The notes under the pieces: generated by a model
Database searches by the model: none
What the model was told of the DNA's origin: nothing
The model's input: only the letters and a program-made list of their open reading frames with translations
IMG/VR virus record: IMGVR_UViG_3300037067_005321
Location: 71,716 to 135,715 of that record
Strand: one strand, 5' to 3'
DNA from: a virus
Lineage: Duplodnaviria > Caudoviricetes
DNA: 64,000 bases
Translations under genes and position numbers: made by a program
Shown here: positions 3,496-43,506 of the stretch, piece by piece
Layout of the letters: the number at the start of each line of letters is the position of its first letter
Numbering within the stretch: position 1 is the stretch's first letter

Positions 3496-4062
3496 ATGAA
3501 ATTAATAAATAATTATTGGGTTGATGAAAATAATAATAAATGGAATGAAGCAAATTGTTCTGAGGAACAAGCAATTGAGAATTCTAAATCATTAATAAAT
3601 TGTTCTCATTGTTCTGATTCTTCTGATTTATTTTATTGTTCTTATTGTTTTAATTGTTCTGATTTATTTCATTGTTTTAATTGTTCTGATTTATTTCATT
3701 GTTCTGATTGTTCTTATTCTTCTAATTTATCTCATTGTTCTCGTTGTTCTTATTCTTCTAATTTATCTCATTGTTCTTATTGTTCTGATTGTTCTTATTC
3801 TTCTAATTTATCTCATTGTTCTCGTTGTTCTGATTTTAAAAGTAATCCTCAAAGAATAGTATCAGATAATATTGGTTCAAGAAAATCACAAACTACTATA
3901 TATTTTAATAATGAAAAAACTTTAGTAATTTGTGGATGTTATAAAGGAACTTTACAAGAATTTAAAGATAGAGTTTGTAATGTATATTCAAAAGATACTT
4001 TGTATTACAAAGAGTATTTTAATTTTATTAACCGTATAGAAAAATATATTAAAGGAGAATAA
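3496..4062 (+). CDS. Cys/Ser-rich repeat protein with conserved phage C-terminal domain
   Basis: tandem CSx/SSNLSH repeats, then IGSR...TTIY...CGCYKGTLQEF domain often fused to repeat regions in phages. Confidence 0.75.
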   Translation: MKLINNYWVDENNNKWNEANCSEEQAIENSKSLINCSHCSDSSDLFYCSYCFNCSDLFHCFNCSDLFHCSDCSYSSNLSHCSRCSYSSNLSHCSYCSDCSYSSNLSHCSRCSDFKSNPQRIVSDNIGSRKSQTTIYFNNEKTLVICGCYKGTLQEFKDRVCNVYSKDTLYYKEYFNFINRIEKYIKGE

Positions 4063-7849: not shown

Positions 7850-8341
7850 TTGTTGACAGAGTATCTCGTGGGAGGGCATATTAATATGGATTGCAAAAAT
7901 TGTGCTAACTATAAACCTATTAAAGAAGAAGAATGCAAATTTAAAATAGGTGATAGAGTTAAAACTGTAAATGAATATTATGGTCCTTTTGGTAATAAAA
8001 CATTAATAGGAACTGTAATTTTTACTCGCAGTAGAAATCCAAATAAGTCTTATCTCATATCTATGCAACTAGATAATAATAAAGAAATGATAAATATAGA
8101 TGAAAACTGGCTTGAACTATATAATGAAAAAATATTAACTCTTAGGCTTTTAGATGGGCATATTCAAGAATTTAAAGAAGAAGAATTAATTCCATATGAA
8201 ACAATTATAATAAGTTGTATTGGAGAAAGAATTTTTGATGAATTTAAAAACAAGTCCACTTGGGTGAATACTAGTGATTATAATTTTTGGATAGGACATG
8301 ATTCTAAAAATCAATTAATAATAGTATTCACTAGAAAGTAA
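7850..8341 (+). CDS. hypothetical protein with SH3/KOW-like FKIGDRVK segment (start probably 7886)
   Basis: ORF track; GGAGG before MDCKNC. Confidence 0.6.
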   Translation: MLTEYLVGGHINMDCKNCANYKPIKEEECKFKIGDRVKTVNEYYGPFGNKTLIGTVIFTRSRNPNKSYLISMQLDNNKEMINIDENWLELYNEKILTLRLLDGHIQEFKEEELIPYETIIISCIGERIFDEFKNKSTWVNTSDYNFWIGHDSKNQLIIVFTRK

Positions 8342-40838: not shown

Positions 40839-41270
40839 ATGAAAATAGTAATAAATAAATGTTATGGGGGGTTTGGGTTATCACATGAAGCTATAATGAG
40901 GTATGGTGAAATAAAAGGAATATCTATCTATCCTATTGTGGAAATAAGAGAATTAAAATCTTTTAAAGATAGAGATAGAAAATATAAATTATATGATCCA
41001 GATACATATGGAGAAGAACCTTTTATAATCTATTATACCACTGCTCCCCTTAACTCAGATGGTACTTATAGTGCAGAAAATTGGATATCAGAATATGATT
41101 TTGAAAGAAATGATCCTGCTTTAATTCAAACGATAGAGGAGCTTGGTGAAAAAGCTAATGGTAGTTGTGCTAAATTAAAAATAGTAGAAATCCCTGATGG
41201 TGTAGATTATGAAATAGAAGAATATGATGGTAGGGAGCATATAGCTGAAAGTCATAGGGTTTGGAATTAA
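40839..41270 (+). CDS. conserved phage hypothetical protein
   Basis: KIVINKCYGGFGLS...RNDPALI..IEELG...LKIVEIP...IEEYDGRE. Confidence 0.8.
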   Translation: MKIVINKCYGGFGLSHEAIMRYGEIKGISIYPIVEIRELKSFKDRDRKYKLYDPDTYGEEPFIIYYTTAPLNSDGTYSAENWISEYDFERNDPALIQTIEELGEKANGSCAKLKIVEIPDGVDYEIEEYDGREHIAESHRVWN

Positions 41271-41271
41271 A

Positions 41272-41760
41272 ATGCGTAAAGAACTAGATAATGATGAGTT
41301 TGTTCTCAAGGATCTGGACATTCAATATAATTCTATTTTCGATTTAGAAAAAGAACTTAGAAATTCTTCTTGCAATGGAGCTAAATATTACCGCTGGTAT
41401 GCTCAATCAATCAGGAAAGTAGCAGATTTGGAATTAGATTTAGAAATAATGTCTGCTAGATTAGTTGATAAGATTTGCAGAGAAGAGAATATAAGTAATT
41501 CAGCAAGAAGTGAGGTGAGAAGATCAAGAATATTTTTAGATGATAAATTTATTAAATTAAAAGTGAAGTATAATGAAGCATTAGAAGAAAAGGAGTATTT
41601 ACGGGGACTTGTAGAAACGTGGAACGCTAGGGAATATAGGATAAAAGAACTTAGTCGGTTGAGTGATAGGTTACTTTGGAACGAACCAAGAGTGTATGAT
41701 AACAGACAAAATACAACTAGAAGCAAAGCAGACGAAAGGTATAAGTTAGAAACAGAATAA
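41272..41760 (+). CDS. UvsY-like recombination mediator
   Basis: all-helical 162 aa with UvsY-like pattern; SSB, SbcCD and RecA in the same region. Confidence 0.55.
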   Translation: MRKELDNDEFVLKDLDIQYNSIFDLEKELRNSSCNGAKYYRWYAQSIRKVADLELDLEIMSARLVDKICREENISNSARSEVRRSRIFLDDKFIKLKVKYNEALEEKEYLRGLVETWNAREYRIKELSRLSDRLLWNEPRVYDNRQNTTRSKADERYKLETE

Positions 41761-41762
41761 AA

Positions 41763-41915
41763 TTTGAGTCAAAAATCACAAGAAAACCATATTGAATAAA
41801 CGAATCAGAGAGAAAAAGAAAACCATGGATCTCAAATGAATCAAAGCGATAAAGAAACCCATGTGGAATAAATGAATCATATATGCGAAGAAAACCGCAA
41901 AACAATAATGCCACA
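41763..41915 (+). ncRNA. TIGR-like array: four 36-nt units (9-nt edge repeat, 9-nt spacer A, 9-nt loop repeat, 9-nt spacer B)
   Basis: edge AAYGAATCA, loop AGAAAMCCA; spacer pairs AAAATCACA/TATTGAATA, GAGAGAAAA/TGGATCTCA, AAGCGATAA/TGTGGAATA, TATATGCGA/CAAAACAAT. Confidence 0.8.
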
Positions 41916-41939
41916 GGAAAGGGGGTGGAAATATTAATT

Positions 41940-42167
41940 ATGTCAGATGATATAAGAAGAGCAATAGTTTTTAATACTCATGCATTAAAAGTAATATTAG
42001 GGAGATACATACTTGAGAATTTTGAAAATCCAGAAGAAGAAAGTCTAGGAAATATTGATTTAAATGTAATTATGGACAATGGAAATCTAAAAACTATAAC
42101 TTTTGAATATATGTATAATGAAGATTTGATATATGATCAGGAAGACAATGTAAAAGAAGAAGAATAA
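41940..42167 (+). CDS. acidic hypothetical protein (start corrected from 41883)
   Basis: GGGGTGG RBS-like sequence before MSDD; the earlier start lies inside the array. Confidence 0.6.
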   Translation: MSDDIRRAIVFNTHALKVILGRYILENFENPEEESLGNIDLNVIMDNGNLKTITFEYMYNEDLIYDQEDNVKEEE

Positions 42168-42180
42168 AGAAGAAAAGATA

Positions 42181-42373
42181 AGACGCCGGTTTGGCTGTAA
42201 CCTCCCCGGCGTTGAACTTATCGCAATAGAATATTGATTAACATTGCTATAACAATAAGAATTTGTACAACATCAATCTTTATTTCTATTGCTAGTCGGT
42301 AATTGGGCTTTTTCAAGTCCATCATCTCTCACTAGATTGGGATAATAAGATTGGGGGGATCATCTCCCCAATC
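42181..42373 (+). ncRNA. multi-stem intergenic structured RNA candidate
   Basis: ACGCCGG/CCGGCGT, GCAATAGAA/TTCTATTGC, ATTGAT/ATCAAT, CTAGT/ACTAG, TGGGCTT/AAGTCCA, GATTGGGG/CCCCAATC. Confidence 0.45.
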
Positions 42374-42391: not shown

Positions 42392-43081
42392 ATGAACAGT
42401 AGAAGACAGTTTTTATTAGGAAGTTTAGGAATAGCATTATCTCTTTTTCTGTTTAAGAAAGAGGCATATGCTTCTATTTTAAATAATGAGAATATAAATA
42501 ATGAGAATATAAATAATGAATATGATAATTTTATTACTGAATTTTATTCTAATACAGTAGATGAAGAAATAGATAGATGGTTCTCCCTCTATAATATAGA
42601 GGAAGGTGATTACAGAGGAAATATAAAATTAATATATAATTGTAATGATTGTTGGGCTTGTGATTTACCATGCTGTTCCATAAAAGATGTGAATCTAGGC
42701 GTGAAAGATAAATTATGTCCATTAAAGATATATGATGAAGATAAAGATAAAGAATTAATATCACAATATATTGAATATTCCCCAAATTTAAAATCAACAA
42801 TTGAATATATATCTAATTCTAAAAAAGAAGGTGTGGATATAGTATCTAGGATACTTATACTTAATCCTGTAAGTTGTTATGGATGTAGTGTTAAATGCAA
42901 TCAAAGAAAAAATAATGCAGATATTGGCATACCAAAATCTTGCTCTTTGAAAATAATGAATAGAGAAGATATAGAAATGGTTAGACCATATTTAAGATAT
43001 CAATGGAATAGAGAAAAAAGAATTAAAATTTATAATATTGTAATAAACTATTCAGATAAAATGAATAATTTACTTAAATAA
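42392..43081 (+). CDS. twin-arginine signal protein with duplicated Cys-cluster domain
   Basis: MNSRRQFL + hydrophobic h-region + AYA cleavage site; two CxxCxxxC...C[PS]LKI repeats. Confidence 0.75.
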   Translation: MNSRRQFLLGSLGIALSLFLFKKEAYASILNNENINNENINNEYDNFITEFYSNTVDEEIDRWFSLYNIEEGDYRGNIKLIYNCNDCWACDLPCCSIKDVNLGVKDKLCPLKIYDEDKDKELISQYIEYSPNLKSTIEYISNSKKEGVDIVSRILILNPVSCYGCSVKCNQRKNNADIGIPKSCSLKIMNREDIEMVRPYLRYQWNREKRIKIYNIVINYSDKMNNLLK

Positions 43082-43101: not shown

Positions 43102-43506
43102 ATGAACAGTAGAAGACAGTTTTTATTAGGAAGTTTGATAGCAGGAGTATCTACCCTCTTTTTTAAGAAAAAAGCCTTATCAAAAGAGAAAGATATGCTT
43201 TCTAAATTAATAGAAATTTCTGATAAAGAAAGAAGTTGGTGTAATGAGTTTGAAGAAGATGAATCTAAATCTATAAAATGGGTTTTAAATAATTTAACTA
43301 ATAAAGAATTAATATTGTTAAGACGATATTTAAGTGATAGTTATCATTATGTAAAAGAATATGATGTTTGTATTAACAAAGCTGGTATGAGAGAAAAATA
43401 TCTTAATGAAAATTTAGGAGATACATGGAAAGTAAGAGAATATATTATAACAGGATATATGCCTAAAGAAAGAATAGATAATAATATATTAAATAAAACA
43501 GAATAA
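43102..43506 (+). CDS. twin-arginine signal protein
   Basis: MNSRRQFLLGSL, identical to the previous gene at DNA level. Confidence 0.7.
   Translation: MNSRRQFLLGSLIAGVSTLFFKKKALSKEKDMLSKLIEISDKERSWCNEFEEDESKSIKWVLNNLTNKELILLRRYLSDSYHYVKEYDVCINKAGMREKYLNENLGDTWKVREYIITGYMPKERIDNNILNKTE

What the first reader, a model, noticed from the sequence alone, without database searches (positions are those of the whole stretch)
41763..41915. TIGR-like dual-repeat guide array with no Tas gene in the window
Seen: an exact 36-nt period made of two alternating conserved 9-mers (AAYGAATCA and AGAAAMCCA) separated by two unique 9-nt spacers. There are four units with degenerate first and last edges, starting 2 nt after the UvsY-like stop codon. 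Known: this edge-repeat/spacer A/loop-repeat/spacer B layout, with repeats ending in YCA, is the architecture of TIGR arrays, which are processed into 36-nt tigRNAs guiding Nop-domain Tas proteins (TasA/TasR/TasH). Inference: I could not recognise a Nop/IS110-like Tas protein in these 64 kb. The array is therefore a remote cassette for a Tas encoded elsewhere, a decoy for another element's Tas, or a partner of an unrecognised effector.
Basis: partly seen in the sequence, partly recalled or inferred. Interest (0 to 1): 0.9.

Follow-up and report, generated by a model that had tools for sequence, protein, structure and literature searches.

The report
TIGR guide array, TasH gene deleted
This short repeat is a genuine guide-RNA array of the recently described TIGR-Tas system, but the phage has lost the partner nuclease gene: only its last 13 codons survive, fused to the array. 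It is most likely a leftover rather than a working weapon.

Summary
Window 41762-41897 carries 3.5 units of exact 36-nt period.

It is a TasH-type dual-repeat TIGR array:
- The units read AAATGAATCA-N8-AAGAAAMCCA-N8 and match 16-19 of the 19 conserved positions of a consensus built from 54 units in other viral contigs.
- In those contigs the same repeats flank a 313-321 aa protein that matches solved Salicola-phage TasH at E=4e-100.

The missing Tas is explained. Directly after the fourth loop repeat the window reads (R)KTIMPQERGWKY-stop. This is the conserved C-terminus and stop codon of TasH (HKTIMPEERGWIY* in a relative). The stump ends 2 nt before the next gene's ATG, so roughly 0.9 kb of tasH was deleted.

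The phage genome is closed (135.7 kb, 120-bp terminal repeat). It has no Tas or Nop gene by Pfam, a Tas profile, tblastn or unfiltered HMM search.

TasH is needed to mature and use tigRNAs, so the array is most likely an inert relic co-transcribed between the UvsY-like gene and orf75. Use in trans by a co-infecting phage's TasH is not excluded:
- The repeats are intact.
- Tas-less arrays of this family recur, for example in a 100%-complete 74.7-kb phage.
- The locus is identical in a second, landfill study.

This scan has flagged orphan or remote TIGR arrays on other DNA before.

The parts
41272..41760 (+). UvsY-like recombination-mediator gene (162 aa). It is not a Tas or Nop protein.
   Evidence: An AlphaFold model built on alignment A1 (pLDDT 76) has T4 UvsY 4zwt as its best PDB match (TM 0.56/0.69, probability 1.0). 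No Pfam or PHROG hit. Two homologues were found.
41762..41771 (+). First edge repeat, degenerate at its 5' side (ATTTGAGTCA)
   Evidence: Related arrays also begin with a degenerate first edge: TATTAATCA in L004, TATTAACCA in L018, TTTTAATCA in L010.
41772..41869 (+). Three complete guide units. Spacer pairs A/B are AAAATCAC/TATTGAAT, GAGAGAAA/TGGATCTC and AAGCGATA/TGTGGAAT. Loop repeats AAGAAAMCCA lie at 41780, 41816 and 41852. Edge repeats AAAYGAATCA lie at 41798 and 41834.
   Evidence: Whole 36-nt units, counted from their own edge repeat (unit 1 from 41762), match the family consensus AAATGAATCA-N8-AAGAAAnCCA-N8 at 16, 18 and 19 of 19 conserved positions.
41870..41897 (+). Truncated fourth unit: edge AAATGAATCA, spacer A TATATGCG, loop AAGAAAACCG. 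The deletion junction lies at about 41890-41898.
   Evidence: The family register ends here, and downstream sequence aligns with the tasH 3' end instead of a spacer B.
41896..41937 (+). tasH stump: codons R-K-T-I-M-P-Q-E-R-G-W-K-Y plus TAA, the last 13 codons of a TasH gene
   Evidence: tblastn with L004 TasH finds only this piece in the genome (IMPQERGWKY against IYPEERGWEY). It aligns with six TasH 3' ends, including SpTasH PQERGWEW* and L011 HKTIMPEERGWIY*. The motif is unique in the six-frame genome and occurs 0 times in 200 shuffles.
41940..42167 (+). orf75, a small gene of unknown function. Its ATG lies 2 nt after the tasH stop, and the purine-rich tasH tail (GGAAAGGGGGTGG) sits where its ribosome-binding site should be.
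   Evidence: no family match. The ribosome-binding role is an inference.
42181..42215 (+). GC-rich hairpin after orf75 (ACGCCGG...CCGGCGT), the probable end of the transcription unit
   Evidence: Read from the sequence. The simple terminator scan did not call it because it lacks a T run.

Best explanation
The element is the surviving upstream guide array of a TIGR-TasH cassette that once sat between the phage's UvsY-like gene and orf75. An internal deletion of roughly 0.9-1 kb removed the end of the array and nearly all of tasH. It joined the loop repeat of unit 4 to the last 13 codons of tasH.

What remains is three complete guide units and one half unit. They have no promoter or terminator of their own and are carried on the uvsY-orf75 messenger.

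TasH both cuts the precursor into 36-nt tigRNAs and uses them, and the closed genome has no Tas of any kind. In a single infection the array therefore cannot yield functional guides. It is most likely an evolutionary leftover. Its 3' tasH tail now merely provides the spacer and ribosome-binding region in front of orf75.

Shown: the array family, the tasH stump, and the absence of Tas in the genome.
Inferred: the direction of the event (deletion), co-transcription, and present inertness.
For: Array family:
- The units match 16-19 of 19 conserved positions of a consensus from 54 units in 7 other contigs.
- The exact two-unit pattern occurs in 18 IMG/VR loci, mostly as 3-14-unit arrays of period 36.
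- The adjacent 313-321 aa proteins are TasH. L004:3838-4779 matches PDB SpTasH (21kl/9w03) at E=3.6e-100 and Pfam Transposase_20.
- SpTIGR itself has the layout AAGCGAGCCA-N8-AAGACAACCA-N8.

Stump:
- Window 41896-41937 reads RKTIMPQERGWKY*. The relatives read HKTIMPEERGWIY* (L011), HRTIMPEERGWEY* (L018) and PQERGWEW* (SpTasH).
- L011 shares the 14-nt run AAAACAATAATGCC with the window.
- The motif is unique in the genome and occurs 0 times in 200 shuffles.

Ancestral layout:
- Relatives have arrays upstream of tasH (L004, L011, L012, L036), so array-tasH is a known arrangement.

No Tas in the genome:
- PF01798: no hit. PF02371: no hit.
- The 8-sequence Tas profile A2 gives no hit at E<=10.
- hmmsearch --max on all six-frame pieces gives a best E of 1.5.
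- The genome is closed by an exact 120-bp terminal repeat.

Dependence on TasH:
- SpTasH processes the pre-tigRNA itself through Y289 and H296 (PMC13421893).
- TasR is required for maturation (PMC12045711).

Transcription:
- No promoter or terminator signal above background lies between the two genes.
- The RNA is unstructured, z=+1.05.
Against: - All retained repeats are intact, and three tigRNA units are formally complete. A recent deletion explains this, but so would selection for use in trans.
- Tas-less arrays of the same family recur: G002, a 74.7-kb genome with a terminal repeat rated 100% complete; G001/L003; L010; L037.
- The locus is identical in a landfill metagenome of another study and year, so the Tas-less state persists.
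- No relative of this phage with an intact tasH at this site could be found, so the direction of the event rests on parsimony.
- No RNA data exist.
Confidence: 0.68

Rival explanations
1. Guide-only cassette used in trans. The array is kept because a TasH, or the HNH-less Tas that uses the same repeats, can process and load its transcripts. That protein would come from a co-infecting phage, a prophage or the host. The phage would then direct a nuclease it does not pay for, or turn a rival's nuclease against targets of its own choice.
For: - The repeats match the consensus at 18-19 of 19 positions in units 2-4.
- The same repeats occur with Tas genes in many unrelated viral contigs and in MAGs of several phyla, so donors are plausible.
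- Tas-less arrays recur, including in a complete genome.
- The locus is unchanged between a 2018 landfill study and a 2022 groundwater study.
- Minimal arrays of 1-3 units are processed if the edges are full (PMC12045711).
Against: - The tasH stump shows that the loss was an accident of deletion, not a designed stand-alone unit.
- Only three usable units remain, and the array has no promoter or terminator of its own.
- No target was found for these or 87 other guides of the family in 440 kb of held phage DNA: 0 exact matches and 5 one-mismatch matches, about the chance level.
- The two samples are identical throughout the laid region, so they carry no signal of selection.
Confidence: 0.2
2. 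RNA decoy against a rival's TIGR-TasH. Transcripts carrying authentic repeats soak up or mis-programme the TasH of a competing phage. This would be analogous to phage RNA anti-CRISPRs built from solitary repeat units.
For: - Authentic repeats without an effector.
- TIGR-TasH cassettes sit in the replication and recombination modules of related kinds of phage, so the phages may meet.
- The analogy to RNA anti-CRISPRs is from my own knowledge and was not tested.
Against: - The evidence against the trans reading applies here too.
- Three units on an mRNA are a weak sponge.
- The tasH stump again argues for decay.
- No experimental precedent for anti-TIGR RNAs exists in the papers searched.
Confidence: 0.07
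3. Not a guide array at all. It would be a minus-strand gene for a 12-residue repeat peptide (ORF 41717-41914), a set of protein-binding iterons, or a chance tandem duplication.
For: - A 65-aa minus-strand frame is open through the array.
- Similar frames exist in other arrays, for example 166 aa in L004.
Against: - Across 54 units, information content is near 2 bits in the two 10-nt repeats and near 0 in both 8-nt blocks. There is no 3-nt periodicity.
- The arrays of L006 and L005 carry 1-2-nt register shifts that would break any frame.
- All genes of the window are on the + strand.
- The minus ORF overlaps the end of the UvsY-like gene.
- Homology to Tas-flanking arrays and the tasH stump are left unexplained.
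Confidence: 0.02

Closest known systems
SpTIGR-TasH of Salicola phage CGphi29 (NC_020844; Faure et al. 2025, PMC12045711; PMC13421893)
   Same: - 36-nt units made of a 10-nt edge repeat, an 8-nt spacer, a 10-nt loop repeat and an 8-nt spacer.
- The repeat sequences are position-by-position related: AAGCGAGCCA against AAATGAATCA, and AAGACAACCA against AAGAAAMCCA.
- The TasH C-terminus PQERGWEW* corresponds to the window's PQERGWKY*.
   Different: - CGphi29 has an intact 309-aa TasH and an array of about 11 units downstream of it, ending in a terminator.
- The window has 3.5 units, no TasH beyond 13 codons, and no terminator.
Uncultured-phage TIGR-TasH cassettes with identical repeats (IMG/VR loci L001, L004, L009, L011, L016, L018; MAG contig L036)
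   Same: - Identical repeat consensus.
- Arrays upstream and/or downstream of tasH.
- A location in replication and recombination modules. In L011 the order is array-tasH-array, then a UvsY-like gene and a gp32-like gene.
   Different: All of these keep a full-length tasH of 313-321 aa, and they have 3-14 units per array.
Tas-less arrays of the same family (G002/L006, G001/L003, L010, L037), and orphan CRISPR arrays or phage mini-arrays as a general analogy (the analogy is from my own knowledge)
   Same: A guide array without a cognate effector in the same replicon. G002 is a closed genome rated 100% complete with no Tas at E<=1.
   Different: Only the window carries a visible stump of the effector gene, which dates and explains the loss. 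I saw no tasH remnant beside the L006, L003 or L010 arrays.

Membership tests
Dual-repeat TIGR array (TasH type) | Two distinct alternating 8-12-nt repeats separated by 8-9-nt spacers, with a unit of 36 nt | tested here: met
   10+8+10+8 nt, exact 36-nt phase over 3.5 units.
Dual-repeat TIGR array (TasH type) | Repeat sequences homologous to those of arrays that flank Tas genes, or of a validated array | tested here: met
   The units match 16-19 of 19 conserved positions of a 54-unit consensus taken from 7 contigs, five with a Tas gene beside the array and two Tas-less (L003, L010). They are the AT-rich counterpart of the SpTIGR repeats.
Dual-repeat TIGR array (TasH type) | Box D (UG) at the start and box C (CCA) at the end of each repeat, as defined for TasR arrays | tested here: inconclusive
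   The edge repeat has UG...UCA (CG in unit 2, as in SpTIGR). The loop repeat has AG...CCA. This differs from the TasR rule in PMC12045711 but is identical to the TasH-flanking arrays.
Dual-repeat TIGR array (TasH type) | A 5'-truncated first edge repeat; a 3'-truncated last edge repeat followed by a terminator | tested here: not met
   The first edge is degenerate, as expected. The 3' end is not a natural array end: unit 4 is cut after its loop repeat and runs into tasH codons, and no terminator follows.
Dual-repeat TIGR array (TasH type) | An adjacent gene for a Nop-domain Tas protein | tested here: not met
   Only the last 13 codons of tasH remain. The closed genome holds no Tas. The locus therefore descends from a TIGR-Tas system but is not a complete one.
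Dual-repeat TIGR array (TasH type) | Transcription and processing into 36-nt tigRNAs bound by Tas | not testable with these tools
   No RNA run holds the stretch. Only DNA contigs were laid.
TasH (HNH-Nop effector) | N-terminal HNH, a coiled coil, a Nop domain, and the C-terminal processing residues (SpTasH Y289 and H296) | tested here: not met
   The stump begins after the position of the processing histidine and covers only the terminal (R)KTIMPQERGWKY.
UvsY recombination mediator (upstream gene) | UvsY fold or Pfam PF11056 | tested here: inconclusive
   The fold search puts T4 UvsY first (TM 0.56/0.69, E 0.015). Pfam gives no hit. The context fits: primase-helicase, gp32-like and RecA-like genes are nearby.

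The most novel reading that the evidence does not exclude
Tas-less TIGR arrays are a functional class: guide-only cassettes that phages keep in their replication and recombination modules to programme, or mis-programme, a TasH supplied in trans by a co-infecting phage or resident prophage that uses the same repeats. The window would be one case caught just after it shed its own nuclease gene.
Probability: 0.2. Interest if true: 0.75.

Novelty: new member of a known kind. Interest (0 to 1): 0.4.

Why it matters
TIGR-Tas systems were described in 2025, and their natural biology (targets, turnover, gain and loss) is still open. Published surveys annotate arrays only around tas genes (TIGRFinder, bioRxiv 10.64898/2026.09.09.750476), so Tas-less arrays are outside their view.

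This locus gives a clean, datable example of how a TIGR-TasH cassette decays: the nuclease goes first and the guides stay. Together with a complete phage genome that has an array but no Tas, it shows that effector-less arrays are not rare in this repeat family.

That is useful for three things:
- annotation, since an array does not imply a working system;
- estimating the cost of tasH to its carrier;
- deciding whether trans-acting guides exist.

On its own it is an ordinary relic of a known system.

Tried and rejected
Relatives of this phage at the same site (none found):
- The search for related loci with the UvsY-like protein, its alignment A1 and P0002 in viral and metagenome contigs.
- The search for related loci with orf75.
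- blastn against the phage collection.
- The upstream orf143 gave 69 loci, but none shares the UvsY-like gene, an array or a Tas.

Other checks:
- G002 and G004 have almost the same length but share no DNA similarity.
- Rfam: no family at E<=1 on the array.
- Target search for 90 guides in both geometries, against 440 kb of held sequence including this genome: nothing beyond chance.
- Scans of the public collections for the 16-nt targets were not run. I estimate roughly 20 chance hits per pattern, so a scan would not discriminate.
- Expression: no RNA holder was listed.
- I considered the upstream 162-aa helical protein as a minimal TasA. I rejected this because its fold matches UvsY and no Tas or Nop chain appears in the Foldseek rows read (ranks 1-50), and it has no Tas-profile hit.
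- I considered the in-phase pseudo-edge TAATGCCACA (41906-41915, 6 of 10 matches to an edge repeat) as a real fourth 3' edge. I rejected this because it is made of tasH codons I-M-P-Q.

Full report
OBSERVATION

The sequence between the stop of the 162-aa gene (TAA 41758-41760) and the ATG of a 75-aa gene (41940) holds a 36-nt tandem repeat.
- TRF reports period 36.
- The combined motif AAYGAATCA-N9-AGAAAMCC has three exact matches in the window, against 0.09 expected in shuffles.
- In the whole 135,715-bp genome this is the only intergenic stretch with a strong lag-36 autocorrelation.
- All genes of the window are on the + strand.

WHAT IT IS

A scan of IMG/VR for two consecutive units of the motif returned 18 loci, many with hits spaced by multiples of 36 nt.

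Read in register, these are long regular arrays of AA(A/G)TGAATCA, 8 variable nt, AAGAAAMCCA, 8 variable nt. A consensus of 54 units from seven contigs is AAATGAATCA-N8-AAGAAAnCCA-N8. Its two 8-nt blocks carry essentially no information. The four window units match 16, 18, 19 and 18 of the 19 conserved positions.

In ten of these contigs the array touches a gene for a 262-321 aa protein.
- The L004 protein (313 aa) matches the solved TasH of Salicola phage CGphi29 at E=3.6e-100.
- It also hits Pfam Transposase_20, the IS110-type domain related to Nop.
- The CGphi29 locus, the experimentally characterised SpTIGR, reads AAGCGAGCCA-N8-AAGACAACCA-N8. That is the GC-rich version of the same two repeats.

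The window array is therefore a TasH-type dual-repeat TIGR array in the sense of Faure et al. 2025 (PMC12045711). As expected for such arrays, the RNA has no stable fold (z=+1.05). Rfam has no model for it.

WHERE THE TAS GENE WENT

tblastn of TasH against the whole genome finds one piece only: IMPQERGWKY at window 41905-41934, directly after the array.

Aligned with six TasH 3' ends, the window reads N-R-K-T-I-M-P-Q-E-R-G-W-K-Y-stop. The relatives read:
- C-H-K-T-I-M-P-E-E-R-G-W-I-Y-stop (L011)
- N-H-R-T-I-M-P-E-E-R-G-W-E-Y-stop (L018)
- ...V-Q-P-Q-E-R-G-W-E-W-stop (SpTasH)

L011 and the window share the run AAAACAATAATGCC. The motif occurs once in the six-frame genome and never in 200 shuffles.

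The array register stops at the loop repeat of unit 4 (AAGAAAACCG, 41888-41897), and the junction lies within about 41890-41898. The tasH stop (41935-41937) is 2 nt from the orf75 ATG.

Relatives show arrays upstream of tasH as well as downstream: L004, L011, L012, L036. The simplest history is uvsY-like, array, tasH, orf75, followed by one internal deletion of about 0.9-1 kb.

IS THERE ANOTHER TAS?

None was found.
- Pfam Nop (PF01798): nothing.
- Transposase_20 (PF02371): nothing.
- An 8-sequence Tas profile that includes HNH-less Tas proteins using the same repeats (A2): nothing at E<=10.
- Unfiltered hmmsearch on all 2,235 six-frame pieces: best E of 1.5.

The contig is closed by an exact 120-bp terminal repeat, so the absence is not an assembly gap.

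The upstream 162-aa protein is helical. Its model matches T4 UvsY best, so it is not a hidden Nop protein. The neighbourhood is a replication and recombination module: primase-helicase, gp32-like, family-A polymerase, clamp-loader-like AAA protein and RecA-like protein.

HOW IT MOST LIKELY WORKS NOW

No promoter-like or terminator-like signal above background separates the array from its neighbours. It is probably transcribed as the intercistronic part of the uvsY-orf75 message. This is an inference.

SpTasH cuts the precursor itself through Y289 and H296 of its C-terminal region (PMC13421893). TasR is likewise required for maturation (PMC12045711). The stump starts after the processing histidine.

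Without a Tas, the three formally complete units cannot become tigRNAs in a single infection. I therefore read the element as a relic. The purine-rich tasH tail now lies where orf75 needs its ribosome-binding site.

WHAT KEEPS THE ALTERNATIVES ALIVE

- The retained repeats are undamaged.
- Tas-less arrays of this family occur elsewhere:
  - a five-unit array between gp32-like and RecA-like genes in G002, a 74,681-bp genome with a terminal repeat rated 100% complete, with no Tas at E<=1;
  - an eight-unit array in G001/L003;
  - a six-unit array filling the split of a family-A polymerase in L010;
  - a five-unit array in a MAG contig, L037.
- A landfill metagenome from another study holds window 41208-41952 without a single difference. 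The Tas-less state is thus established in the lineage, though identity throughout the laid region gives no measure of selection.
- Guides could be used by a TasH supplied in trans, or could act as a decoy. I put these at 0.20 and 0.07.
- No targets were found for 90 guides of the family in 440 kb of held DNA. This matches the literature's difficulty in finding natural targets.

A minus-strand repeat peptide is rejected. Variation is confined to the spacer blocks with no codon periodicity, and register shifts occur in sister arrays.

COMPARISON AND NOVELTY

The kind is known, and this is a decayed member. The papers I could search do not mention orphan or Tas-less TIGR arrays, and TIGRFinder looks only around tas loci. 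Earlier notes of this scan describe remote or orphan TIGR arrays on other genomes. I took from them only the caution to verify genome completeness. The distinctive point here is the tasH stump, which turns 'no Tas' from a puzzle into a documented deletion.

LIMITS

- No relative with an intact site was found.
- There are no RNA data.
- The host is unknown.

Noticed in passing
L010:1082-1330 (IMG/VR contig of 7,375 bp): A six-unit Tas-less TIGR array exactly fills the gap between the two halves of a split family-A DNA polymerase. The stop of the first half lies in the first truncated edge repeat, and the ATG of the second half lies in the last one. An 11-nt string, TACATCTCAAG, occurs both as the first spacer A and 20 nt into the second half. 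This is unexplained.
   Followed up: partly
L006:9540-9760 (= G002, 74,681 bp, terminal repeat, CheckV 100%): A five-unit array of the same repeat family lies between a gp32-like gene and a RecA/UvsX-like gene, downstream of a UvsY-like gene. The whole genome has no Tas at E<=1, and there is no tasH stump beside the array.
   Followed up: partly
L003 (rc 3861-3932) and L012 (rc 8110-8181): Consecutive units have identical spacers, which suggests that TIGR arrays can grow by tandem duplication of whole units.
   Followed up: no
L002, L012, L014, L029: The same edge and loop repeats also flank a 262-284 aa Tas that lacks the HNH domain. L029 is a Flavobacteriales MAG with 13 or more units. One repeat family therefore serves two effector architectures.
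   Followed up: partly
L009, L011, L010, L006 and window 34642-63235: TIGR-TasH cassettes and solo arrays of this family sit repeatedly between replication and recombination genes (PolA, clamp-loader-like AAA, UvsY-like, gp32-like, RecA-like). That is the kind of site homing-endonuclease genes occupy in T4-like phages.
   Followed up: partly
window 3496-4062: A 188-aa Cys-rich protein built from a 9-nt (3-residue) repeat (CSDLFHC/CSYSSNLSHC runs). It accounts for the strongest tandem repeat of the window (3599-3836).
   Followed up: no
window 42392-43081 and 43102-43506: Two adjacent genes share a Tat-type signal-like N-terminus, MNSRRQFLLGSL (17 of 27 residues identical), but little else. The first also has an NNENI repeat.
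   Followed up: no
window 41208-41952: A landfill metagenome run from a different study and year holds this stretch with no differences. The phage, or a near-identical one, therefore lives in both groundwater and landfill samples.
   Followed up: yes
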